Source: Escherichia phage BP9. Taken from it: 64,000 nucleotides of DNA. Under the pieces are notes generated by a model that saw only the letters and a program-made list of their open reading frames with translations, was not told where the DNA came from and did not search any database. Where the stretch lies: sequence record PP488543.1; one strand, written 5' to 3'. This document shows positions 53,823-64,000 of the stretch, in pieces. The first letter of the stretch is position 1. Every line of letters starts with the position of its first letter. The translations under genes were made by a program, and so were the position numbers.

Positions 53823-56800
53823 ATGGCTGATATTAAAGTTGTCAGAATTGAATCTCTTCCTGCCACTACCGCAGTGACAGAGGATGATTACCTGGTTGTT
53901 CAACAACCAGACCTGACCCGTCGTGTAAAAATTGGCGATGTTGTCCATGTTGATGGGACTGTTTCTCATGTAATCTCCTTTAAGGAAGGTGGTAAGTTAA
54001 ACGGCCCAATGGATTTTGCCTACTTCGAAGAGGAAGACCTCTACCTGCGTTGGAAAGGCGAATTTCCGCACACTGTTCCTGCACTATCTTCACCGTACTC
54101 CGATGGCGGGATTACTGACGCTGCATGGATGGTATATACTGACCCGTCCTTAAGGGAGGAGCTGGAATCTACCATTGGCGCATCCATGATCATGACAGCC
54201 GAAGGGCAGTCTGTCCAGGATGTAATGGATGTTACTGTTCAGACAGCTAACGATGCCAAAGCACTTGCACAGCGTGTAGATTTTGGTACAGTGCACACTG
54301 TAGGCGATGTTATTCACCTTGATAACTTTGTTGGCCCTGCAGTTATTGAAGAGGGAAGAACTACCAACTACCCTTCTGTAGCAGCTGGTGAAAAATTTCT
54401 GAACGGTGTGGTATCTCGTCGTGATACTACAACTGTTGATGGTATTTTCCGTGGCGCTACCTCCGGAGCAATGTATACCATTGCAGTAACCAACGGTGTA
54501 GCAACAACAAAAAGAATAGCACTTCGTGATGAATTTAAACGCCTGGAGGCAAACAACCAAACAAGAACAATTATCCGTGCTGGAGATGATTTAAACACGG
54601 CAGGGTACTTGCAGCTTGATGCAACAGGCCGTTGGGGTATGTGGAACCAACAAACAGCTTCTTGGCAGCCTCTTGCTATAGAGCAGGGCGGCACAGGGGC
54701 TAGAGATGCCGCTGGAATCCGTACCAATATCGGTGCTTTCTATAAGCAACGTGCAGCCCTTGAGCCAAATTTCAATATCAATAACTTGACTGGTAATCAG
54801 GATGGTATATACTACCAGCCGATGACTGCTTATGCAACTGAGGCAAATGGTTATCCTGCAGGTTCTGGTGCTGGTCACTTGATTGTTTGGCAGAACAATG
54901 CTAACGGTGGTACAGGTTGTCGTCAGGAATACTATCCATTCTCCAACGTAGATGTTTGGTATTTGAGAACCTATCAGGCCAACACAAATCAGTGGACTGC
55001 ATGGCAGCCGATGGTCAGACCTCGTAACGATGATACCTTTAGAGCGCACATCGGTCTCGGGTCTAGAAACTCCCCTACCTTCGGGCACCTTTACCTGTCT
55101 CAAAGCTCTGCGGATGTTAAGTCAGCATCAGGTATTGTTAACGGAGACAAATACAACGCTGACGGTGTCCTTGAGCATGGGTATAGGATCTACTCTGAGG
55201 TAAGGAACGACAATAAGGCTTGGTTGACAATCCACCTGCACAAAGGTGCAAAAGGATCTGAAACTCATAGATATTTAGGCTTCCGTGAGGATGGGGTCTT
55301 AGATTGTCCTAAATATATGCAGGTTGGTGATCTGAACGGTCAGATGGCAAACTGGGGACTTGGAGAATGGATCCGCAGTTCAGGAGCAGAAAGAGGTTTC
55401 TGGGGATCTAAGAAAGCCGCCAAGATGGTCATCTGGGATGGCGGTATGGACGAGCAAGGTGAAGGAACGCTTGAGTGGGGTGTTTATAACAACCGGAAAG
55501 CCAAATGGGAACCACTACCGATAGCTTGTGGTGGTACCAGTGCCAGGACTGTAGGGGATGCTCAAGCACAATTCAGAATCCCTCTGGCAGCAGGTACTAG
55601 ACCATATGTAAACCTGCCTAGAACTGCAGCTATGCAGGACGGTAAGTATTATCCTATTATCGTCAGAACTGACCCCAACTTTGCAGCAACTATCGGGACA
55701 GATTTAACCATTGTCACCAGATCTTCTTCTGGCGGCGACCCAATGAACTGTGCTACACTACAGTGTCACTACAGAATTGGTGGCTGGACAGACAGAGGTG
55801 ATTCTTTCCAAGGGGTTATTAATTTCTACCAAAACGAGAAAGCAATCCTCGGATGTGTATCTCCAACCAGAGGTAAGCAGGAGTATGTTGCATTCTATGT
55901 AGAGGCACGTGCATTCCCTGTTACAGTATATGCTGGCGCTACTGTAATAGAAGTGTCAACCAGGGAGGTTGATTGGCAGGTAGGCAACGTGGAAGGTAAC
56001 CAAGATGGTGTCAAGTTCTGTGCTCCTCTGGCATCTGCAGATTTGAGTCTTGCAATCAAAGGTGATGATGTAACAAACACTAGACCTCTGGTTGAGTTCA
56101 AAGGGACATCAGGTTTCTACACTGGTGGTGGAACTATGTGGCACTACCTGGGAACTCCTGAACGCTATGCAGTGATGAGCAAAATGAACATGCCTAAAGT
56201 CGAGCTTTGGGCAGACGGTATTGACTACATTTGTCCTGGTAGTCAGACCACTAGAAAAGCACTGTTCTCTAACGCAGGGTTCCAAGCTGCATCGGAAGGA
56301 ACAGAGGATCTGATCAACAACACCTTTACCTCTAAATGTGGTAATGGTGCAAGACTACAAGGCCAGGCAGAGTTCAGATCTACTCCAGAGGCTGGTCAAG
56401 TTATTGTTCGTGATGTTGTAGGCACAGCTCATAGATTCTATAACTTCAACAAAGATGGCACTTTCTCAGCCCCTGGTGGTTTTGTATGTCATACTGGTGC
56501 AGACTGGAACAACCAGTTTGGGCCTAACAACCCTTCTAAAATAATGGCAGGCAATGTCAACGGACCTGAAGGATCGATGGTTGTTGGTGGGTTGTCTGTG
56601 GCGTTTTCTGGAAACTATGCCTTCCAAATGGCTGGTCGCCTTGATCAGTTATACACCAGATCTATCGAGGGTGGTAACCATAGGGCATGGAACAAAGTTA
56701 TTCAGCACCGTGGTCAAGGTCTGGGGACAGAAGACCTTAATGACTACGATGGTAGCCGTGAAGGTTTCTATCACCAGGGTTCAAACGCTGACGCACTTGT

Positions 56801-57635
56801 AATAGCTCGTCACTACCCTGCTCCGTACGCTGGTACGCTGCTTGTTTACAAAAACACAGCCAACAGACCGCAAGGTTGTGTGCAGGAATACATTACCTAT
56901 TTTGGTGACAGATATACTCGTGCTGGTAACTACGTTGGCGATGTCTTTACTTGGGAAGAATGGAGACACGATGCTGGTAAGGGCATTCAGTTAAGACCTA
57001 ATTACACTTTCGGTGAAAACAGTACTCAGCTGGAAATTCATGTTGGTGCTAATGGTCTTCCATCCAACGCCGATAACTTACCTACCAACAATGCTATACT
57101 CCATTATTGGGGTAACGGCAGTGCAGGGACTCGTCCAAACGTGTTAGAGTTTAAGGTTCTTGACGAGTCTCAATCGGCTTATGTATGGCATTGCGGTACC
57201 TTGCCGGATAAATCAAGATATCTTTCTGTAAACGGTGCTGTGAATTGCACATCTGTCAATCAGAGTTCTGACAGAGATCTGAAAGATAACATAGCTGTTA
57301 TTCCTGATGCGTTAGAAGCTATCCGGAAGATGAGGGGTTATACTTACACTCTTAAAGAGAACGGTATGCCTTATGCAGGTGTTATAGCACAAGAAGTTCT
57401 TGAAGCGCTGCCGGAAGCAGTTAGCTCTTTCGTGCAAAGAAAGGAAATCCCAAACCCTGATCAGGATGGAACTCCTTTAATAACAGAGGAAAGATTCTAC
57501 AGCGTGGATTACGCAGCTGTAACAGGCTTGCTTGTCCAGGTTTGCAGGGAACAGGATGATAAAATAACCGCCCTTGAGGAGCAGGTTAAAAAATTGACAG
57601 AGGTTGTTACTGGGTTGCAAGAGAAACTGAAGTAA
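53823..57635 (+). CDS. tail fiber protein with C-terminal intramolecular chaperone domain
   Basis: 1270 aa; C-terminal SSDRDLKDNIAVIPDALEAIRKMRGYTYTLKENG matches S74-type auto-cleaving chaperone domains. Confidence 0.8.
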   Translation: MADIKVVRIESLPATTAVTEDDYLVVQQPDLTRRVKIGDVVHVDGTVSHVISFKEGGKLNGPMDFAYFEEEDLYLRWKGEFPHTVPALSSPYSDGGITDAAWMVYTDPSLREELESTIGASMIMTAEGQSVQDVMDVTVQTANDAKALAQRVDFGTVHTVGDVIHLDNFVGPAVIEEGRTTNYPSVAAGEKFLNGVVSRRDTTTVDGIFRGATSGAMYTIAVTNGVATTKRIALRDEFKRLEANNQTRTIIRAGDDLNTAGYLQLDATGRWGMWNQQTASWQPLAIEQGGTGARDAAGIRTNIGAFYKQRAALEPNFNINNLTGNQDGIYYQPMTAYATEANGYPAGSGAGHLIVWQNNANGGTGCRQEYYPFSNVDVWYLRTYQANTNQWTAWQPMVRPRNDDTFRAHIGLGSRNSPTFGHLYLSQSSADVKSASGIVNGDKYNADGVLEHGYRIYSEVRNDNKAWLTIHLHKGAKGSETHRYLGFREDGVLDCPKYMQVGDLNGQMANWGLGEWIRSSGAERGFWGSKKAAKMVIWDGGMDEQGEGTLEWGVYNNRKAKWEPLPIACGGTSARTVGDAQAQFRIPLAAGTRPYVNLPRTAAMQDGKYYPIIVRTDPNFAATIGTDLTIVTRSSSGGDPMNCATLQCHYRIGGWTDRGDSFQGVINFYQNEKAILGCVSPTRGKQEYVAFYVEARAFPVTVYAGATVIEVSTREVDWQVGNVEGNQDGVKFCAPLASADLSLAIKGDDVTNTRPLVEFKGTSGFYTGGGTMWHYLGTPERYAVMSKMNMPKVELWADGIDYICPGSQTTRKALFSNAGFQAASEGTEDLINNTFTSKCGNGARLQGQAEFRSTPEAGQVIVRDVVGTAHRFYNFNKDGTFSAPGGFVCHTGADWNNQFGPNNPSKIMAGNVNGPEGSMVVGGLSVAFSGNYAFQMAGRLDQLYTRSIEGGNHRAWNKVIQHRGQGLGTEDLNDYDGSREGFYHQGSNADALVIARHYPAPYAGTLLVYKNTANRPQGCVQEYITYFGDRYTRAGNYVGDVFTWEEWRHDAGKGIQLRPNYTFGENSTQLEIHVGANGLPSNADNLPTNNAILHYWGNGSAGTRPNVLEFKVLDESQSAYVWHCGTLPDKSRYLSVNGAVNCTSVNQSSDRDLKDNIAVIPDALEAIRKMRGYTYTLKENGMPYAGVIAQEVLEALPEAVSSFVQRKEIPNPDQDGTPLITEERFYSVDYAAVTGLLVQVCREQDDKITALEEQVKKLTEVVTGLQEKLK

Positions 57636-57734: not shown

Positions 57735-58325
57735 ATGTTTTTATGGGAAAGGCCTAGATACCTTCCAGATATTAGATTGGAGCTGCTGGCAGATATTGTT
57801 ACGTTTAAAAGTCCGTTTACAGGTAAAACGCAAAAAGTAACCTATGCCACACCTAACTGGAAAGGCACTTTGACGGTTTCCAATATCAGCGAGTCACAGT
57901 TGCTAGAGCTTAAGAGCTTTGTTGATCAGGTGTATAAAGATGGAAACATCTTTCTTATTAAAACTTACGGTCACTCAGTAACAGCTAATGAGCCAATCGC
58001 CCTCGGGCCTACTGGTAACGATGATTTTTTGAGGACGGTTGGGTGGGAGCCAAACAGAGACATAGCCAGAGCTGGGGATAAAATATCTGTCAATGATGAA
58101 TTGAAAGTGGTAACAGCTCCAGTGCGTAGCGATGGTGTTGGGTCTGCTGTTATAAGCATATCTCCAAGACTTAGAAAACCTATTGCCGCAGGGGACACTA
58201 TGAAGATAATAACTCAATCCCCGAAGGGTAGGTTTCATATCAGAGATATTTATAAAATTAAGCAAAAAGTCGATGCTATGCAAAAAGGGGATAATATAGT
58301 TATCAACTTCTTTGAGGATTTCTAA
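57735..58325 (+). CDS. hypothetical tail protein
   Basis: 196 aa. Confidence 0.45.
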   Translation: MFLWERPRYLPDIRLELLADIVTFKSPFTGKTQKVTYATPNWKGTLTVSNISESQLLELKSFVDQVYKDGNIFLIKTYGHSVTANEPIALGPTGNDDFLRTVGWEPNRDIARAGDKISVNDELKVVTAPVRSDGVGSAVISISPRLRKPIAAGDTMKIITQSPKGRFHIRDIYKIKQKVDAMQKGDNIVINFFEDF

Positions 58326-58430
58326 GATGATCAGAGCGCCATTAGATAATTTATTTCTTGAAAGCTGGAGCTTGATGGTGTTGAGATCTTAATTGCTGCA
58401 AAGCTGGAGCTACCGACAGGAACTGTCAGG

Positions 58431-58877
58431 GTGTGCTCAGGCACTGGTGTTGTAGTAATTGAGGGGCAACATTTTATAGGGATAGGTGGGTCAGCAACAT
58501 TAACCGCTGTGTCTGAGAAAGATGCCACCAACTTCGGATCTGTGGTAGCGACATTGAACGGGTTTGATCCTAAGTATGTGGGTGATCTGCTGAAGACGGA
58601 GTATTCTGGTTGTCGTGCCACGTTGTACATTACCGCTATGGAGAATGGTCTGCCTGTTACAACTAATGGCTTGTTTGACGGCCTTATAACAGATATGGCT
58701 ATTCAGACGGGTGAGAATAGCGCTTTGTCCATATCCATCTCTTCCATCTTCAACAGTTGGTTAAGAGGTTTTCCTTATCGGTACACGGAGGAAAGCCACA
58801 GCTCAAGAAACGATAACGACAGATTTTTTAAATATGTGGATCAGGTGGCGAGCCGCCCGATCATTTGGGAGGTTTAA
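58431..58877 (+). CDS. hypothetical tail protein
   Basis: GTG start; preceded by 105-nt gap containing a 12-nt direct repeat. Confidence 0.4.
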   Translation: MCSGTGVVVIEGQHFIGIGGSATLTAVSEKDATNFGSVVATLNGFDPKYVGDLLKTEYSGCRATLYITAMENGLPVTTNGLFDGLITDMAIQTGENSALSISISSIFNSWLRGFPYRYTEESHSSRNDNDRFFKYVDQVASRPIIWEV

Positions 58878-59302
58878 TGAGCACACATCCTCGTCTAGTG
58901 GACTGGCAAGAAAGATTGTGGAAAGTGTTTGACGAAGAGGCCACCATACCTTTTGAATGGGGATTCCACGATTGTTGCACCTTTGCAGCTAAGTGTGTTG
59001 ATGCCCAATACGGAACAGATTTTCTTTCTAACTTCGAAGGAACGTATAAAACAGAGTTGGAAAGCAAAAGATGGTGCATGCTCCGTTTCAAAACCACACA
59101 CCTGCCTACTATTTTTGATCTCTTTATGACTCGGCTGGATACTCCTAAACAGGTTCAGCGTGGAGATATTGTCATTTTCGAAGGTCTGAACGGCCTCACC
59201 GCTGGTGTGTTCTGGAACAACCAGATTTGGGCGAAAGGTGATAAAGGGGTCTTTATGTTCGATATGAAAGATTCTATCGTTGTTGATGTCTGGAGGTATT
59301 AA
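58877..59302 (+). CDS. hypothetical tail-associated protein with Cys-His motif (possible NlpC/P60-like)
   Basis: ATG 58877 with GGGAGG SD (track starts at 58865); GFHDCCTF and GDIVIF segments; tentative. Confidence 0.35.
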   Translation: MSTHPRLVDWQERLWKVFDEEATIPFEWGFHDCCTFAAKCVDAQYGTDFLSNFEGTYKTELESKRWCMLRFKTTHLPTIFDLFMTRLDTPKQVQRGDIVIFEGLNGLTAGVFWNNQIWAKGDKGVFMFDMKDSIVVDVWRY

Positions 59303-62300
59303 TGCCAATTGCAATGATTGATAACATCGTTGCTTCTGCAAGATCTTCAAGTTATGACTGGAACGCATCCAAGGCAGCTCTGGCTGACAGCCTGAACACT
59401 GTTACCACCAGAACTCTGGATAAGATTTTTGAGGGTAACAAATCTTACAGAAGTCAGCAAGATAGACAAAAGCTTCTCAGATCTTCTGCTGCACCCTGCT
59501 CTGTAGTGTATGGAAAGACACGCACATCTGGATTGCTTGCGTTTTTGGAGCAGGATAGAGACAAAACCCTCCATTGTGCTATTGTTCTTGCCAATCACCC
59601 TCTGGAAGGTATAGAAGATATACTTATCGATGGTAATCCTATTTCCTCGTATGGAGATTTGGTATCGTGGGAGTTACATAACGACAGAAAAACGGCTGAT
59701 CCTTTCATGGGGACACACTGCCCATCGTGGTCACCAGACATGATAGGTAGAGGGATCAGTTGGCTACGTGCCAGCTTCAAGTTCGACCCTAACAAGTTTC
59801 CTTTTGGGTTGCCAAACGTTACACTCGTTAAGGTTGGTAAAAAATGCTATGATCCTCGTATCAGTAAAGAGGTGTACACCAATAACGCATCCTTGGTGAT
59901 CCTGGACTATTTAAGAACGTACCTTAAATGTCCTGACGAAACCATCAACTGGGAGTCCTTTAAGGAGGCTGCCAACATATGCGACGAGGCGGTAAAAAAC
60001 GCTGACGGAACCAGTGAGCGACGTTACACCATTAACGGTGAGTTTGACATGGATGAGGCCCCAGCAAGTATTATGGCAGAAATGCTGAAAGCTTGCGGTG
60101 CAGACCTTAGTTATGTTGCTGGTAAGTATGGTTTGCTGGTTGGTGCATACTATGGTCCGGCAACAATGACATTGAGTGAGGACTGTGTCTGTGGTGAGGT
60201 TAAGATCTATCCGGAAGCCTCATTTGACAAAAGATCTAACACAATAACTGGCAGATTCACTAGTCCGACCAAAGGGTATTCTGAAACAGATTTCCCATCA
60301 GTGTTTGTCCCAGAGTGGATAGAGAAGGATGGAGAAAGAAAGATAATCGATATAGACTATCGCTTTGTTACCAGTCCTTATCAAGCTCAACGTGTTTCTG
60401 CAATCTTCTTAAGACGTGCTAGAGCTGGCAGGATTATTGAAGTCACCTGCAATATGCGAGGTTTTAAATTTAAGCCTGGCCGTTACGTTACAATGAATCT
60501 CCCAAGTATTGGTATAGTAGGCCAAGAAATGAGGGTTCTTGAATGGGAGTTCACCAAAAAGGGTGGTGTCAAGGTAAAACTTCGTCAAGATGCTAAAGAG
60601 TGGAATGATGCCACAGGGCAACTTCCGGATTCTGGTGATGTAGATATTCCGATATCTCCATCTGGTGTAGCTCAACCGCAAAACTTCAGATACTCCGTCC
60701 TCCAAGCTGGGGAAATAACTCACGGTGTTCTGGCTTGGGACAACGTTGGGACTTACGCTCAAAATATTGTGCAGGTAAGAAAGAACGGAGAGATTGTTTG
60801 GACAGCACAGACAGTTGAGCAGTTTGTCCGAGTAGAAGGCTTGACCAAAGGGTCATACACAGCAACCGTGGTTGCAACATCTTATAAAGGTGGTGTATCT
60901 CCAGAAGCGTACTGCGAGTTTAACATTCAGGCACCTGAAGCTCCTGTTTCTGTAGAGGTTAAGCAGGGATACTTTGCTATCACCTTGATTCCACACAGCA
61001 GGGATTTAGCAAGTGTAAGCACCCAGTATGACTTTTGGACATCTGGTATGACAAGGTTGCCCGACACCAGCGATGCAACCGTTACTTCAAACGCCACCCG
61101 TATGGGTGTTGGTTCAACTTGGACATCCGAAGGTCTGCAGAACGATAAGGTTTATTATTGGTATATTCGAACCACAAACGCTTTTGGTAGCTCTCAGTTT
61201 GTAGAGTGTGCTGCACGCTGCTATACCTCCATTGAGGATTTGATGCCTCAGATAGATGCTGAATTCAAAAAGACAGAAACTTATAAAGAGTTGATGAGCA
61301 CTTTGGATTCCTCTATTGAAGAGGTTGAAAATCGTGTCACAGAACTTAACAGGTACATGGATGGTAGAGTTGACGAGGCTTTTGACCACATGGAAGGTGA
61401 GTTCTCTAGAGTAGACAAGCTGTATGCTCAGTTGGGAGATAGGGTTGGAATATTCATCCAAGAAACCCACGACAACTTCCAGGACGTTAATGGAACGCTT
61501 ACCACTCTAGATCAGAAACTGGTAGCCACTCAGAACAAGTTTGCAGATGATCTTTCTAAAGAAAGTGGCAAGCTTGCTTCTCTAATCCAGACCACTAACA
61601 AAGCTACAACCGATCTGTTAAATCAGAAAACTGAAGCTTTGGACGAGAAGATTGTTTCAACCAGGGGTGAGTTGGAAGATGCTTTAGCGCAGGAAAGCTC
61701 TGAGCTGAACTCCCTGATTGTATCAACCAATAAAACGACTACAGATCTCCTTAATCGGAAAACCGAGGCTTTAGACAATAAGCTGACGGCAACGAAAGGT
61801 GAGTTGACCAACAATCTGCAGAATGAGAGTGCTAAACTATCGTCCTTGATTGAGTCAACCAACAAATCCACCACTGATCTTCTTAATAAGAAAACAGAGG
61901 CGTTGGATGAAAAACTGGTTGCTGCACAGGGCGAGTTGACTGAGCAGATCGGAGATGTTGAAAAAGGCTATCTGGCTGGTGATAAGAGCCTAGAGGGCAA
62001 GTTGAATACTCAAAGATCTGAGTTGGATGCGAGCATTCTGAGCACTAACCAGGCCACTGTGGACTTGCTGAACAGAACTTCTGAGACTCTTGACCAGAAG
62101 ATTAGCCAGACCAACGCCACAGTGTCCAAAAACTACACCACGCTTGATGGTAAGATAAACACCGCCAAGTCTGATCTTAATACGTTGATTTCTACCACCA
62201 ACAAGGCCACAACTGACCTGTTGAATCAGAAAACGGCAGCTTTGACTGAGCAGTTAACCACTGCTAAAGGGCAGATTACAACCAACACCAATAATATTAC

Positions 62301-63447
62301 TGGGTTGGACAATAAGCTGACTCAGACGAAGAAAGACTTGTCTGCGAATATTTCTGAAACTAATAACGCCACTGTTGATCTGATTAACGGCACAGCGTCA
62401 GCTATTCGTCAAGAACTTGCTGTTGCTAAGCAGGAGATCATTGATGGTGTTGGCGATGTGTCCGAGATCAGGGCTGCAGTAGCTACAACAGCTAAGGCTG
62501 TGACCGACTTAGAGGGTAAAGTAAATGCTCAGTGGGGTACAAAAATACAGGTAGACTCCGCAGGGAATAAATATGTTGCAGGTATCCAGTTGGGGATGGA
62601 AGGGTCTGGGGGCCAAGTTCAATCCTACTTCATGGTTAGTGCAAACAATTTTGCGGTATACAATCCTGGCAATGGAACAGCAACCCTTGCTTTCGCAATC
62701 AAGAACAACCAAGCGTTCTTGAAAGACGCTTTTATAGAGAATGGCACGATCTCCTCTGCCAAGATCGCACAAGAAATTTCGTCAAACAACTACGATGGCA
62801 ACGGGTACCATAAATACGGTTGGTATATTAACAAGAACGGGCACGCCCAATTTATGGATGTGTGGGTGAAAGGCAACATCAACGCCAGTTCTGGTAACTT
62901 CACAGGGGCAGTTAACGCCACTAGTGGTACCTTCCGTGGGGATGTTTATGCCAATAATGGTAGCTTTAGAGGCACCATAGATGCAACCGGAGGTACCTTC
63001 CGTGGTCGTGTAGAAGCTTCTGTTATCCGTGCCAACCAGTTCGAAGGTGCAATTGTTGCACACAGGACTTACGGGGATTGTGCTCCAGTATATAACTCTC
63101 AGCAAAGGGTTTGCCGTTGGAGGTGGAGATACGTAGATAACGTTTCAGGTCAGGGTAAGAACGTAACATTCTTCTTTAAACTGAACGGTACTCTTGCCAG
63201 CTCCCAACTGAATGCATGGATAGCTGGTCATCAGATCCTTGCTGGCAAGAAGTATTTTAACGACAACAACGGCATGTGTGCGGTAGGGATAACAGGTCTG
63301 GGTGAACAAACTATAGACATTGTTATCGAGATTTACACACCGTGGTCAACGTCGAGCGTGACAGGTGTCACAATCTCCTGTCCCACTGTGATAGTAAGTC
63401 GTTCAAACTCTAGCTTCCAGGGACCTTGGAACGAGTCTCACGACTAA
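59302..63447 (+). CDS. large distal tail / host-specificity protein with lambda J-like segments and coiled-coil repeat array
   Basis: 1381 aa; GYFAIT...YYWYIRTTNAFGSSQFVE and AQWGTKIQVDSAGNKYVAGIQLG parallel lambda J GYFQIT...YYFYIRSVN...FVE and AMWAVKIE..HYVAGIGL; about six 42-aa tandem repeats. Confidence 0.65.
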   Translation: MPIAMIDNIVASARSSSYDWNASKAALADSLNTVTTRTLDKIFEGNKSYRSQQDRQKLLRSSAAPCSVVYGKTRTSGLLAFLEQDRDKTLHCAIVLANHPLEGIEDILIDGNPISSYGDLVSWELHNDRKTADPFMGTHCPSWSPDMIGRGISWLRASFKFDPNKFPFGLPNVTLVKVGKKCYDPRISKEVYTNNASLVILDYLRTYLKCPDETINWESFKEAANICDEAVKNADGTSERRYTINGEFDMDEAPASIMAEMLKACGADLSYVAGKYGLLVGAYYGPATMTLSEDCVCGEVKIYPEASFDKRSNTITGRFTSPTKGYSETDFPSVFVPEWIEKDGERKIIDIDYRFVTSPYQAQRVSAIFLRRARAGRIIEVTCNMRGFKFKPGRYVTMNLPSIGIVGQEMRVLEWEFTKKGGVKVKLRQDAKEWNDATGQLPDSGDVDIPISPSGVAQPQNFRYSVLQAGEITHGVLAWDNVGTYAQNIVQVRKNGEIVWTAQTVEQFVRVEGLTKGSYTATVVATSYKGGVSPEAYCEFNIQAPEAPVSVEVKQGYFAITLIPHSRDLASVSTQYDFWTSGMTRLPDTSDATVTSNATRMGVGSTWTSEGLQNDKVYYWYIRTTNAFGSSQFVECAARCYTSIEDLMPQIDAEFKKTETYKELMSTLDSSIEEVENRVTELNRYMDGRVDEAFDHMEGEFSRVDKLYAQLGDRVGIFIQETHDNFQDVNGTLTTLDQKLVATQNKFADDLSKESGKLASLIQTTNKATTDLLNQKTEALDEKIVSTRGELEDALAQESSELNSLIVSTNKTTTDLLNRKTEALDNKLTATKGELTNNLQNESAKLSSLIESTNKSTTDLLNKKTEALDEKLVAAQGELTEQIGDVEKGYLAGDKSLEGKLNTQRSELDASILSTNQATVDLLNRTSETLDQKISQTNATVSKNYTTLDGKINTAKSDLNTLISTTNKATTDLLNQKTAALTEQLTTAKGQITTNTNNITGLDNKLTQTKKDLSANISETNNATVDLINGTASAIRQELAVAKQEIIDGVGDVSEIRAAVATTAKAVTDLEGKVNAQWGTKIQVDSAGNKYVAGIQLGMEGSGGQVQSYFMVSANNFAVYNPGNGTATLAFAIKNNQAFLKDAFIENGTISSAKIAQEISSNNYDGNGYHKYGWYINKNGHAQFMDVWVKGNINASSGNFTGAVNATSGTFRGDVYANNGSFRGTIDATGGTFRGRVEASVIRANQFEGAIVAHRTYGDCAPVYNSQQRVCRWRWRYVDNVSGQGKNVTFFFKLNGTLASSQLNAWIAGHQILAGKKYFNDNNGMCAVGITGLGEQTIDIVIEIYTPWSTSSVTGVTISCPTVIVSRSNSSFQGPWNESHD

Positions 63448-63455
63448 CCTTTAAA

Positions 63456-63480
63456 GCCCCGCTTCGGCGGGGTTTATTTT
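63456..63480 (+). terminator. rho-independent terminator
   Basis: AGCCCCGC-TTCG-GCGGGGT followed by TTATTTTTAT. Confidence 0.75.
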
Positions 63481-63490
63481 TATGCTCAGA

Positions 63491-63519
63491 TTGACTATTG
63501 TTACAAAATTTGGTAAAAT
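63491..63519 (+). promoter_or_regulatory. sigma70-like promoter with extended -10
   Basis: TTGACT (63491-63496) N17 TAAAAT within TGGTAAAATA (63511-63520). Confidence 0.6.
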
Positions 63520-63552
63520 ACCTTGTAGAGATTTTCATACCGGAGGAGTGAC

Positions 63553-64000
63553 GTGGCTAAGTATGGATTGACAGAGGCTGGTTTCGTTATACCAACCCTA
63601 AATGACCTAATCGTTGAAACTAAGCAAAGCCTGATCCGTGCTTTTGGCGAAAACTTCAACGTACAGAGTAACTCCGTTGCAGATAAGCTGACCACTATCT
63701 TCAACGAGCGAGAGTATCAACTTATTCTTATGGCAGCATCTGTATACGCATCACAGACGCTGTATGGGGCAGAAGGTATTTACCTAGATGAGCTTCTTGG
63801 AAGACAGGGTATTTACCGAAGAGGCCGTTCTAAATCATCAGGTACCTGCCAGTTGACAATCAACACAACTGTGCCGTACAATATGATTTATGATTCCAAA
63901 ACTTATACGCTGGACAGTGGCAACTTTGTTCTTAGCAACGATGTGCAAGTAGCAGGGAATCTTATTGCTCACAGAATAAATGCTCCAGACCTAAGGATTG
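63553..64000 (+). CDS. hypothetical structural protein, 3' end truncated by window edge
   Basis: GTG 63553 with GGAGGA SD; frame open to end of window (MAKYGLTEAGFVIPTLNDL...); not in track because no stop in window. Confidence 0.4.
   Translation, partial: MAKYGLTEAGFVIPTLNDLIVETKQSLIRAFGENFNVQSNSVADKLTTIFNEREYQLILMAASVYASQTLYGAEGIYLDELLGRQGIYRRGRSKSSGTCQLTINTTVPYNMIYDSKTYTLDSGNFVLSNDVQVAGNLIAHRINAPDLRI

What the first reader, a model, noticed from the sequence alone, without database searches (positions are those of the whole stretch)
61540..62420. Tandem 42-aa coiled-coil repeats inside the lambda J-like distal tail protein
About six consecutive repeats of the pattern L.SLI.STNK.TTDLLN.KTEALD.KL...G.L lie in the middle of the 1381-aa protein, between a J-like FN3 segment and a J-like C-terminal segment. 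Such arrays are length-variable by recombination and may tune fiber reach or host range.
Basis: seen in the sequence. Interest (0 to 1): 0.45.

Follow-up and report, generated by a model that had tools for sequence, protein, structure and literature searches.

The report
Repeat-built helical stalk in phage fibre
The repeats are real and build a long helical rod inside a lambda-J-like tail fibre protein of an rV5-type E. coli phage; related phages carry three old versions of this rod with 6, 4 or 3 repeats, swapped by recombination, which is an ordinary feature of phage fibres with a neat population twist.

Summary
The gene 59302-63447 (+) encodes a 1381-aa J-like protein. Six related units start at aa 758, 802, 846, 908, 959 and 1013 (nt 61573-62523). 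The period is 44 aa (132 nt, four 11-residue hendecads), not 42. Units 3-6 are 51-62 aa long.

The units lie in a proline-free stretch of about 400 aa (aa 655-1058) whose hydrophobic period is 3.64. This stretch sits between the J-type Ig/FN3 domains and the tail-tip domain. Lambda J has only about 6 residues there.

The window is a Vequintavirus, an rV5-like myophage. Within the genus the stalk exists as three discrete alleles:
- 6 units, 1381 aa
- 4 units, 1279 aa, which includes rV5 gp37
- 3 units, 1199 aa

The gene flanks are 95-100% identical (dS about 0.1-0.2). The stalk is 57-74% identical, with saturated dS and dN/dS of 0.06-0.11. The alleles are therefore old, under purifying selection, and moved between phage backgrounds by recombination.

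Units share at most 11 identical bases, and copy number was the same in every sequence examined within each allele. The array is therefore not a slippage-prone locus.

An effect of stalk length on fibre reach or host range is plausible but untested. This is an ordinary kind of feature and a modestly interesting case.

The parts
59302..63447 (+). J-like tail fibre gene, 1381 aa; orthologue of rV5 gp37, six-unit allele
   Evidence: ORF. PHROG 31 'central tail fiber J', E = 5.6e-160. Pfam Ig_J, Ig_J_second and Phage_Tail_Tip. 99.9% nt identity to Escherichia phage VB-EcoM-WM. rV5 gp37 is 1279 aa and was detected in virions by mass spectrometry (PMC3606486).
60778..61257 (+). Two J-type Ig/FN3-like domains (aa 493-652)
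   Evidence: Pfam PF24421 and PF24489. Aligns to lambda J residues 666-844.
61252..61293 (+). Conserved N-terminal junction motif IDAEFKKTETYKEL (aa 651-664) at the start of the stalk
   Evidence: Conserved in all three Vequintavirus alleles and in the J proteins of siphoviruses WildeMaa and 9g.
61264..62475 (+). Proline-free helical stalk (aa 655-1058), the predicted trimeric coiled-coil rod
   Evidence: No proline. Hydrophobic period 3.64 with power 280, against a shuffle maximum of 109. Local period 3.6-3.75 from about aa 655 to 1060. The AF2 monomer model is helical over aa 644-1081 but has low confidence.
61573..61704 (+). Repeat unit 1 (aa 758-801, 44 aa)
61705..61836 (+). Repeat unit 2 (aa 802-845, 44 aa)
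61837..62022 (+). Repeat unit 3 (aa 846-907, 62 aa). It includes a Gly-rich extension, GDVEKGYLAGDKSLEG, where the helical periodicity dips
62023..62175 (+). Repeat unit 4 (aa 908-958, 51 aa), diverged
62176..62337 (+). Repeat unit 5 (aa 959-1012, 54 aa)
62338..62523 (+). Repeat unit 6 (aa 1013-1074, 62 aa), the most diverged; it runs into the junction with the tip domain
61324..62415 (+). Allelic cassette, where the six-unit and four-unit alleles diverge. Against the three-unit allele the diverged block is 61131-62621
   Evidence: 526 differences in 1091 columns inside the block, against 87 in 3182 outside it. Identity profiles. dS 1.6-2.3 inside against 0.11-0.14 outside.
62497..62538 (+). 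Conserved C-terminal junction motif AVTDLEGKVNAQWG (aa 1066-1079)
   Evidence: Conserved across the alleles and in the Queuovirinae J proteins.
62476..62898 (+). Phage_Tail_Tip domain (aa 1059-1199)
   Evidence: Pfam PF09327, E = 7.6e-39. Aligns to lambda J, the F2-pyocin fibre and gp24 in the PDB.
62899..63444 (+). C-terminal domain (aa 1200-1381) with no family assignment; 98-100% identical between the stalk alleles
   Evidence: No Pfam hit. Conservation shown.
57735..59302 (+). Upstream partner genes of the module: Dit-like (57735-58325), 'tail protein' (58326-58877, frameshifted in this window) and DUF6950 (58877-59302)
   Evidence: PHROG 1302, 2048 and 2134; Pfam DUF6950. Homologous, gene for gene, to the tail-tip module of Queuovirinae siphoviruses.

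Best explanation
The region encodes a rod-like stalk of about 400 residues inside a trimeric J-type tail fibre protein of an rV5-like myophage (genus Vequintavirus).

The stalk is an amphipathic alpha-helix whose core residues recur every 3.64 residues. It consists mostly of 11-residue hendecads, so three chains should pack into a nearly straight parallel coiled coil. It grew by tandem duplication of a 44-residue module (four hendecads). Six copies remain, now strongly diverged.

The rod separates the N-terminal hub-like and FN3 part, which anchors the protein in the tail, from the conserved C-terminal tip domains. It would be up to about 60 nm long if fully extended.

In the genus the stalk occurs as three old alleles with 6, 4 or 3 units (406, 304 and 224 residues). 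They are kept intact by purifying selection. They pass between phage lineages by homologous recombination in the nearly identical flanking sequence, not by slippage inside the array.

The likely role is a spacer that sets how far the tip domain reaches. The alleles would differ by about 12 to 27 nm.

Shown: the repeats, the periodicity, the allele series, the mosaic pattern and the purifying selection.
Inferred: the trimeric coiled coil, the extended rod geometry and the spacer function.
For: Repeats and period:
- Lag-44 self-similarity lies far above shuffles, with sub-peaks at 11, 22, 33 and 66.

Helical signature:
- No proline in aa 655-1074.
- Hydrophobic period is 3.67 in aa 758-889 and 3.64 over aa 655-1074, with power 280 against a shuffle maximum of 109.
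- The periodicity starts at about aa 640 and ends at about aa 1065.
- AF2 predicts helix for aa 644-1081 with three short breaks, though mean pLDDT is only 45.
- There are weak matches to the Apolipoprotein 11/22-mer family and to the trimeric coiled-coil tail needle gp26, PDB 4lin.
- RBPseg AF2-multimer models of a Vequintavirinae fibre in class TC5 show 'large coiled-coil domains' with a central-fibre-like N-terminus (PMC12143355). The paper's text does not give the accession of that fibre, so its identity with this protein is my inference from the architecture.

Trimer:
- Lambda J occurs as 3 chains per PDB entry.

Insertion relative to lambda:
- Lambda J passes from FN3 (residue 844) to the tip domain (residue 850).
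- The closest siphovirus J proteins have about 100 residues there.

Alleles:
- Genes of 4146, 3840 and 3600 nt carry 6, 4 and 3 units in 116 phage genomes.
- Flank dS is 0.11-0.23. Stalk dS is 1.6-3.9 with dN/dS 0.06-0.11.

Recombination:
- The window's flanks are closer to the four-unit phage magaca (96.9% nt) than to the six-unit phage NHEP1 (93.7%).
- Its stalk is 96.3% identical to NHEP1 and 73.7% identical to magaca.

Stability:
- Exact nucleotide runs between units are at most 11 nt.
- Copy number is the same in every sequence examined within each allele.
Against: - There is no experimental or high-confidence structure for the stalk. The AF2 monomer model is poor (pLDDT 45), and a monomer model cannot show whether the rod is extended or folded back into a helical bundle.
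- Periodicity dips at aa 864-918, and there are several Gly-rich spots, so the rod may be jointed.
- The position of this protein in the myovirus virion is unknown. Cryo-EM of two Vequintavirus phages resolved three other fibres and not this one (PMC12143355).
- No phenotype has been linked to stalk length.
- The high threonine content (14%) is unusual for a helix, although it is common in fibre coiled coils.
Confidence: 0.75

Rival explanations
1. The array is a currently unstable, recombination-prone repeat. Unequal crossing-over between units changes copy number often, giving length heterogeneity within populations.
For: Relatives differ by exactly two in-register units: 88 aa at the junction between unit 1 and unit 3.
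Against: - Units are 42-69% identical at the DNA level. The longest shared exact run is 11 nt, and dS between units is saturated.
- Tandem Repeats Finder detects nothing.
- All 119 four-unit clusters, all 14 listed six-unit members and the five near-complete three-unit members have the same unit count and positions.
- The two-unit difference sits in a cassette that is about 26% diverged as a whole.
Confidence: 0.05
2. The units are binding modules rather than pure spacer. Each 44-residue unit would offer a docking surface for another virion protein, such as one of the many other fibre or spike proteins of these phages. Unit number would then set how many partners attach.
For: - The consensus TNKxTTDLLNxKTEALDxKL is kept in units 1, 2, 3 and 5, including residues at positions expected to face outward, although synonymous sites between units are saturated.
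- These phages carry many fibre proteins whose attachment points are unknown (PMC8594841; PMC12143355).
Against: - No partner is known.
- Units 4 and 6 have lost much of the motif.
- Polar residues near the core are common in trimeric fibre coiled coils (own knowledge), so their conservation may be structural.
- The three-unit allele is only about 51% identical in protein in the stalk.
Confidence: 0.12
3. Stalk length has no functional consequence. The three alleles are neutral variants of a tolerant linker that persist by drift and by hitch-hiking during recombination of neighbouring fibre genes.
For: - Linker length between the last Ig domain and the tip domain ranges from about 32 to about 2470 residues across J-like proteins, so the architecture tolerates almost any length.
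- The neighbouring 1270-aa fibre gene is also strongly mosaic.
Against: - dN/dS of 0.06-0.11 in the stalk shows that the sequence is constrained.
- Only three discrete lengths are seen in over a hundred genomes, each with sharp boundaries inside the gene.
- The six-unit allele has spread into backgrounds whose flanks are more diverged than the stalk.
- These points fit selection on whole alleles but do not prove it.
Confidence: 0.25
4. The segment is not helical and forms a beta-structured fibre, such as a triple beta-helix or beta-spiral. Such folds also use Thr/Asn/Ser-rich repeats.
For: High Thr, Asn and Ser content. The AF2 model has low confidence.
Against: - Hydrophobic period is 3.64, not about 2.
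- There is no proline, and glycines are sparse and mostly single.
- AF2 predicts helix throughout.
- Sequence matches are to helical families only.
- Published multimer models of a Vequintavirinae fibre with this architecture show coiled coil.
Confidence: 0.03

Closest known systems
rV5 gp37 and the other Vequintavirus orthologues (annotated 'tip attachment protein J', 'central tail fiber J' or 'lateral tail fiber protein with fibronectin type III domain')
   Same: Same gene. The N-terminal 650 and C-terminal 300 residues are 98-100% identical in protein. gp37 is a virion component by mass spectrometry (PMC3606486). 'Very strong' allelic variation at what I infer to be this gene's position was noted in the BASEL paper (PMC8594841, S5C Fig legend).
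   Different: rV5 gp37 and most relatives have the four-unit stalk (1279 aa) or the three-unit stalk (1199 aa). The window has the rarer six-unit stalk, found in about 12-14 of 116 records. The BASEL paper suggested that the variable genes encode distal, host-contacting parts. Here the variation is confined to the helical stalk, and the distal domains are conserved.
Bacteriophage lambda tip attachment protein J (PDB 8iyk and related entries)
   Same: The FN3/Ig domains and the tail-tip domain align (E = 3.4e-28). It is a trimer, and it has the same order of domains.
   Different: Lambda J has about 6 residues between FN3 and the tip domain, where this protein has about 400. Lambda is a siphovirus in which J closes the tail tube. 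This phage is a myovirus that also has its own annotated hub and spike genes. Pfam does not detect the N-terminal hub region (Phage-tail_3, E = 0.11).
J-like tail tip proteins of Queuovirinae siphoviruses (phage 9g gp68; Seuratvirus WildeMaa bas23_0020)
   Same: These are the closest relatives outside the genus, at 50% protein identity over aa 48-867. The three upstream genes are homologous as well, at 31-45% identity. The junction motifs at both ends of the stalk are the same.
   Different: Their stalk is only about 100 residues and lacks the 44-residue unit. It carries a short QGxLIDx heptad repeat instead. The C-terminal receptor-side domain differs.
Coiled-coil-bearing J-like fibres in the RBPseg structural atlas (classes TC5, TC3/4/9)
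   Same: [quoted passage not shown] TC5 includes a Vequintavirinae fibre (PMC12143355).
   Different: The passages read do not describe the 44-residue hendecad repeat, the unit counts or the allele series. The models are predictions.
Solved J-like fibres with a helical segment before the tip domain (F2-pyocin tail fibre 25vf; gp24 23gd; 'putative tail fiber protein' 9l9p_S)
   Same: They align to the last ~100 residues of the stalk plus the tip domain (E = 8e-18 to 9e-14). 9l9p_S itself contains a tandem helical repeat just before the tip domain.
   Different: Their repeat sequences and periods differ, and they are not orthologous in the stalk.
P22-type tail needle gp26 family (PDB 4lin)
   Same: A trimeric phage coiled-coil rod built of repeated segments. 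It gives a weak sequence match (E = 0.0025). Needle length varies between relatives through coiled-coil insertions (own knowledge).
   Different: It is a different protein family with a different position and role (tail plug and needle). There are no shared domains.
Stalks of trimeric autotransporter adhesins and other repeat-built coiled-coil spacers (own knowledge, not tested here)
   Same: A parallel trimeric coiled coil with non-heptad periodicities and polar core residues. It is built from repeated segments whose number differs between strains and sets the reach of a terminal binding domain.
   Different: These are bacterial surface proteins with no homology. This is an analogy only.

Membership tests
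Lambda J-like central tail fibre / tip attachment protein (PHROG 31) | J-type Ig/FN3-like domains | tested here: met
   Pfam Ig_J_second scores 106 bits against a cut-off of 27. Ig_J scores 24.5 bits, below its cut-off of 29. Lambda J residues 666-844 align.
Lambda J-like central tail fibre / tip attachment protein (PHROG 31) | Phage_Tail_Tip (DUF1983) domain after the FN3 region | tested here: met
   PF09327 scores 133 bits against a cut-off of 22, covering aa 1059-1199. PDB matches to J proteins.
Lambda J-like central tail fibre / tip attachment protein (PHROG 31) | N-terminal hub-forming region homologous to J or the T5 hub | tested here: inconclusive
   Pfam Phage-tail_3 gives only E = 0.11. 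No PDB sequence match covers aa 1-490. However, PHROG 31 covers aa 143-1239 at E = 5.6e-160, and aa 48-867 are 50% identical to the Queuovirinae J proteins.
Lambda J-like central tail fibre / tip attachment protein (PHROG 31) | Gene context: follows the Dit-like and small tail-tip genes, downstream of the tape measure gene | tested here: inconclusive
   The Dit-like, tail protein and DUF6950 genes precede it exactly as in 9g and WildeMaa. The tape measure gene is not adjacent. Annotated hub, spike and three fibre genes lie between.
Lambda J-like central tail fibre / tip attachment protein (PHROG 31) | Forms the trimeric tip that closes a non-contractile tail tube | not testable with these tools
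   The phage is a myovirus with separately annotated hub and spike genes. The location of this protein in the virion is unknown.
Alpha-helical coiled coil, hendecad type | Amphipathic periodicity between 3.5 and 3.67 sustained over the segment | tested here: met
   3.67 in aa 758-889 and 3.64 in aa 655-1074, well above shuffles. Sliding-window map.
Alpha-helical coiled coil, hendecad type | Predicted continuous helix without helix breakers | tested here: met
   No proline in 420 residues. AF2 assigns helix to aa 644-1081 with three short breaks, but at low confidence (pLDDT 45).
Alpha-helical coiled coil, hendecad type | Knobs-into-holes packing of parallel chains (a trimer here) | not testable with these tools
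   Only monomer prediction was available. The trimer is inferred from lambda J, which has 3 chains per PDB entry.
Recombination-prone tandem repeat (contingency-type length-variable array) | Near-identical DNA repeats that allow slippage or unequal crossing-over | tested here: not met
   Units are 42-69% identical, and the longest exact run is 11 nt. Tandem Repeats Finder finds nothing.
Recombination-prone tandem repeat (contingency-type length-variable array) | Copy number differs among very close relatives | tested here: not met
   Copy number is the same in every sequence examined within each allele. It differs only between alleles that are 26-43% diverged in DNA.
Apolipoprotein A1/A4/E (Pfam PF01442) | Score above the Pfam gathering threshold | tested here: not met
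   32 bits against a cut-off of 90. The match reflects only the shared 11/22-residue amphipathic periodicity.
P22 gp26 tail needle | Significant homology over the needle domains | tested here: not met
   There is only one weak local match in the coiled-coil part (E = 0.0025, 20.6 bits).

The most novel reading that the evidence does not exclude
The three stalk alleles could be a balanced polymorphism of a molecular ruler. A conserved tip domain would be held at three set distances from the baseplate, differing by about 12-27 nm. Each distance would suit hosts with surface glycan layers of a different thickness. The alleles would be kept for a long time by host-dependent selection and shuffled between lineages as cassettes.

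A further twist is that the ruler sits in a complete siphovirus-type tail-tip module (Dit, two small proteins, J). These myoviruses carry this module in addition to their own hub and spike, so a central-fibre machine would have been re-used as an accessory fibre.
Probability: 0.15. Interest if true: 0.6.

Novelty: new member of a known kind. Interest (0 to 1): 0.3.

Why it matters
Repeat-built coiled-coil stalks are a common way for phage fibres and bacterial adhesins to set the reach of a binding domain, so the feature itself is ordinary.

The useful point is that nature supplies a clean allele series here. The anchor and tip domains are the same, and the rod has 6, 4 or 3 units, in easily grown E. 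coli phages (the BASEL collection, rV5, FFH2). That makes the effect of fibre length on adsorption and host range directly testable by allele swaps.

It also refines an earlier reading of this locus. The 'allelic variation' that I infer was noted at this gene lies in the stalk, not in the host-contacting end.

For engineering, the conserved junction motifs mark natural splice points for changing fibre length.

Tried and rejected
- Tandem Repeats Finder on 59000-64000 found no array in the region. The repeat is visible only at the protein level.
It was rerun with aa 490-1381.
- The unit profile was searched against 150 diverse J-like representatives. There were no convincing hits outside Vequintavirus, so no donor of the unit was found.
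- The AF2 monomer model of aa 640-1381, made with a shallow alignment, had mean pLDDT 45. I used it only for secondary structure. I ran no fold search because the matches would be meaningless.
- The phi92 cryo-EM paper was checked for an equivalent protein. None is mentioned in the sections and search terms I read.
- The receptor-prediction preprint assigns the NGR-binding role to a different fibre, the one with the deacetylase domain, and is not informative for this gene.
- GC and GC3 content of the stalk against its flanks shows no compositional anomaly pointing to a foreign origin.
- An IMG/VR scan added only one six-unit locus and two four-unit loci, and no new alleles.
- The antisense ORFs inside the region (61623-61874 and 61114-61470, minus strand) were considered and dismissed. 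They lie inside a gene under strong purifying selection, and the first falls in the segment that is absent from the four-unit and three-unit alleles.
- Pr121LW looked like a fourth length class. The extra 127 nt lies near the 3' end of the gene, not in the stalk.

Full report
**What is there**

The finding lies in ORF 59302-63447 (+), which encodes 1381 aa. Pfam places Ig_J at aa 493-545, Ig_J_second at aa 547-652 and Phage_Tail_Tip at aa 1059-1199. PHROG 31 'central tail fiber J' matches at E = 5.6e-160. Lambda J (PDB 8iyk) aligns to aa 497-678 and 1065-1218.

The window is an rV5-like myophage of the genus Vequintavirus. The gene is 99.9% identical to that of Escherichia phage VB-EcoM-WM, and 116 phage records match it. 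The orthologue in rV5 is gp37 (1279 aa), a virion protein by mass spectrometry (PMC3606486).

**The repeat**

Six units start at aa 758, 802, 846, 908, 959 and 1013. Their lengths are 44, 44, 62, 51, 54 and 62 aa, spanning nt 61573-62523.

Self-similarity at lag 44 is 0.52 over aa 641-1070, against a maximum of -0.03 in 500 shuffles. It is 2.74 in aa 746-890, with further peaks at 22, 66, 77, 11 and 33. Unit 1 alone finds units 3, 2 and 5 at E = 2e-10 to 4e-7, unit 4 at 0.011, and unit 6 only at about 1.

The period is therefore 44 aa (132 nt), not 42. It is a multiple of 11, not of 7. At the DNA level the units are weakly similar, and Tandem Repeats Finder sees nothing.

**Helical nature**

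Residues 655-1074 contain no proline. Their hydrophobicity has one dominant period. It is 3.67 in the three regular units and 3.64 over the whole stretch, with power 280 against a shuffle maximum of 109.

A sliding-window map shows that this signal begins at about aa 640, runs at 3.6-3.75 to about aa 1060, dips at aa 864-918, and is absent from the flanking beta-rich domains. Written in rows of 11, the units place Leu, Ile or Thr at positions a, d, e and h. That is the hendecad pattern of a nearly unsupercoiled coiled coil (established knowledge of coiled-coil periodicities).

An AF2 monomer model with a shallow alignment was poor (mean pLDDT 45). It assigned helix to aa 644-1081 with three short breaks, which I count as weak support.

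Sequence matches of the stalk are only to helical families. Apolipoprotein scores 32 bits, below its cut-off of 90. The coiled-coil tail needle gp26 matches at E = 0.0025.

Published AF2-multimer models describe a Vequintavirinae fibre (class TC5) with 'large coiled-coil domains', a central-fibre-like N-terminus and a beta-helical C-terminus (PMC12143355). The text does not name that fibre, so its identity with this protein is my inference from the architecture. A trimer is inferred from lambda J, which has three chains per PDB entry.

**Comparison with relatives outside the genus**

Lambda J passes from FN3 (residue 844) directly to the tip domain (residue 850).

Across 150 diverse representatives of the family, the linker between the last Ig domain and the tip domain ranges from about 32 to about 2470 residues. 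It is usually proline-poor, with period 3.5-3.6. It often carries its own internal repeats, with periods of 29, 32, 36, 37, 44 or 122.

Solved J-like fibres align into the last ~100 residues of the stalk plus the tip domain. These are the F2-pyocin fibre, gp24 and 9l9p_S. One of them has its own tandem helical repeat there.

A repeat-built helical stalk is thus a family habit. The particular 44-residue unit was found only in Vequintavirus proteins.

The closest relatives outside the genus are the J proteins of Queuovirinae siphoviruses (9g, WildeMaa), at 50% identity over aa 48-867. Their stalk is about 100 residues, lies between the same junction motifs (IDAEFKxTETYKEL and AVTDLEGxVNAQWG), and lacks the unit.

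**The allele series**

Within the genus the gene comes in three sizes:
- 4146 nt, 1381 aa, 6 units: about 12-14 records, including WM, YN3, ECML-10, NHEP1, ECP32 and several records labelled 'Campylobacter phage'.
- 3840 nt, 1279 aa, 4 units: about 57 records, including rV5 derivatives, magaca, RudolfGeigy and MaxBurger.
- 3600 nt, 1199 aa, 3 units: about 45 records, including FFH2, DrSchubert, MaxTheCat and Murica.

The four-unit form lacks exactly two units in register (88 aa) plus 14 aa upstream. The three-unit form differs further, by gaps of 4, 18, 11 and 47 aa.

Outside the stalk the genes are nearly identical. Against magaca there are 87 differences in 3182 columns outside 61324-62415 and 526 in 1091 columns inside it. 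Against DrSchubert the diverged block is 61131-62621.

| Comparison | Flank dS | Stalk dS | Stalk dN/dS | Source |
|---|---|---|---|---|
| six-unit vs four-unit | 0.11-0.14 | 1.6-2.3 | 0.06-0.07 | |
| six-unit vs three-unit | 0.16-0.23 | 2.0-3.9 | 0.11-0.18 | |

The alleles are therefore far older than the backgrounds they sit in, and they are under purifying selection.

Their distribution disagrees with the flanks. The window's flanks are closer to the four-unit phage magaca (96.9% nt) than to the six-unit phages NHEP1 and ECP32 (about 93.7%). Its stalk is 96-97% identical to NHEP1 and ECP32 and 74% identical to magaca. In places the stalk is 100% identical to NHEP1 and ECP32 while the flanks are 90-93%. 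This is cassette exchange by homologous recombination in the conserved flanks.

**Stability**

Between units the longest exact nucleotide run is 11 nt, and dS is saturated. All 119 four-unit clusters have 4 units. All 14 listed members of the six-unit cluster have 6 units at identical positions, and the five near-complete three-unit members have 3. No five-unit or seven-unit form appeared in the phage records, the protein clusters or IMG/VR. The array is a fossil of old duplications, not an unstable repeat.

**Mechanism**

The best-supported reading is a trimeric, hendecad-rich coiled-coil rod that spaces the conserved tip domains from the anchor part. At about 0.148 nm per residue the three alleles would measure about 60, 45 and 33 nm if fully extended. 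This is an inference, because the rod may be jointed at the Gly-rich segment in unit 3.

The tip and C-terminal domains are 98-100% identical across the alleles. Any functional effect of the alleles must therefore be geometric.

The BASEL paper noted 'very strong' allelic variation at a position along the rV5 fibre locus that I infer to be this gene. It suggested that such genes encode distal, host-contacting parts (PMC8594841). My data place the variation in the stalk instead.

The rivals are a neutral linker, docking sites for other proteins, an unstable repeat and a beta structure. They are weighed in their own section.

**Context worth noting**

A relative's annotation shows a tape measure gene, a hub gene and a spike gene of the myovirus type further upstream. 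The four genes Dit-like, tail protein, DUF6950 and J-like are homologous, gene for gene, to the tail-tip module of Queuovirinae siphoviruses. These myophages thus carry a second, siphovirus-type tip module. Where it sits in the virion is unknown.

**Verdict**

An effect on reach or host range is untested. This is a known kind of feature, a coiled-coil stalk of variable length in J-like fibres, in a gene already present in public records. It comes with a tidy natural allele series that would make fibre-length effects testable.

Noticed in passing
window 57735-63447; L010 4271-8970; L011 4263-8937; L009: The four consecutive genes Dit-like, 'tail protein', DUF6950 and J-like are homologous, gene for gene, to the tail-tip module of Queuovirinae siphoviruses (9g, WildeMaa). 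Identities are 31-50%, and gene sizes are similar. The myophage also has its own annotated tape measure, hub and spike genes upstream. So a complete siphovirus-type tip module sits in a contractile-tailed phage, and its place in the virion is unknown.
   Followed up: partly
window about 58360 (gene 58326-58877): A one-base deletion in an A-run (GAAAAG becomes GAAAG), relative to all six relatives compared, frameshifts the 183-aa 'tail protein' gene (PHROG 2048). In the window only a 148-aa ORF starting at GTG 58431 remains. This is either a homopolymer sequencing error or a real disruption.
   Followed up: partly
window 55300-57300 (in the 1270-aa fibre gene 53823-57635): The upstream fibre gene (Tail_spike_N plus a Peptidase_S74 chaperone domain) is strongly mosaic. 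Identity falls to 53-85% against some relatives while staying at 96-100% against others (YN3, ECP32), with different partners in different segments.
   Followed up: no
public records MG0656xx (for example L006): Eighteen records labelled 'Campylobacter phage' (UNVERIFIED, host C. jejuni) are Vequintavirus genomes 92-97% identical to this E. coli phage gene. The host label looks doubtful.
   Followed up: no
L008 (phage Pr121LW), near the 3' end of the J-like gene: A 127-nt insertion relative to all other alleles lies about 180 nt before the stop codon. The ORF in that record is broken, giving 1139 aa. This is either a small inserted element or an assembly artefact.
   Followed up: no
proteins P0272 (1199 aa) and P0281 (1139 aa): Two members of the six-unit cluster are truncated after the tail-tip domain but keep all six units. 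One ends exactly at aa 1199, which is the boundary before the C-terminal domain. They could be frameshifts or contig ends.
   Followed up: no
representatives P0125, P0126, P0129, P0130, P0134 (2265-3530 aa): Some J-like proteins with the same N-terminal architecture carry 1300-2470 residues between the Ig domains and the tip domain. Two of them also show a weak lag-44 signal, although they do not match the Vequintavirus unit profile.
   Followed up: no
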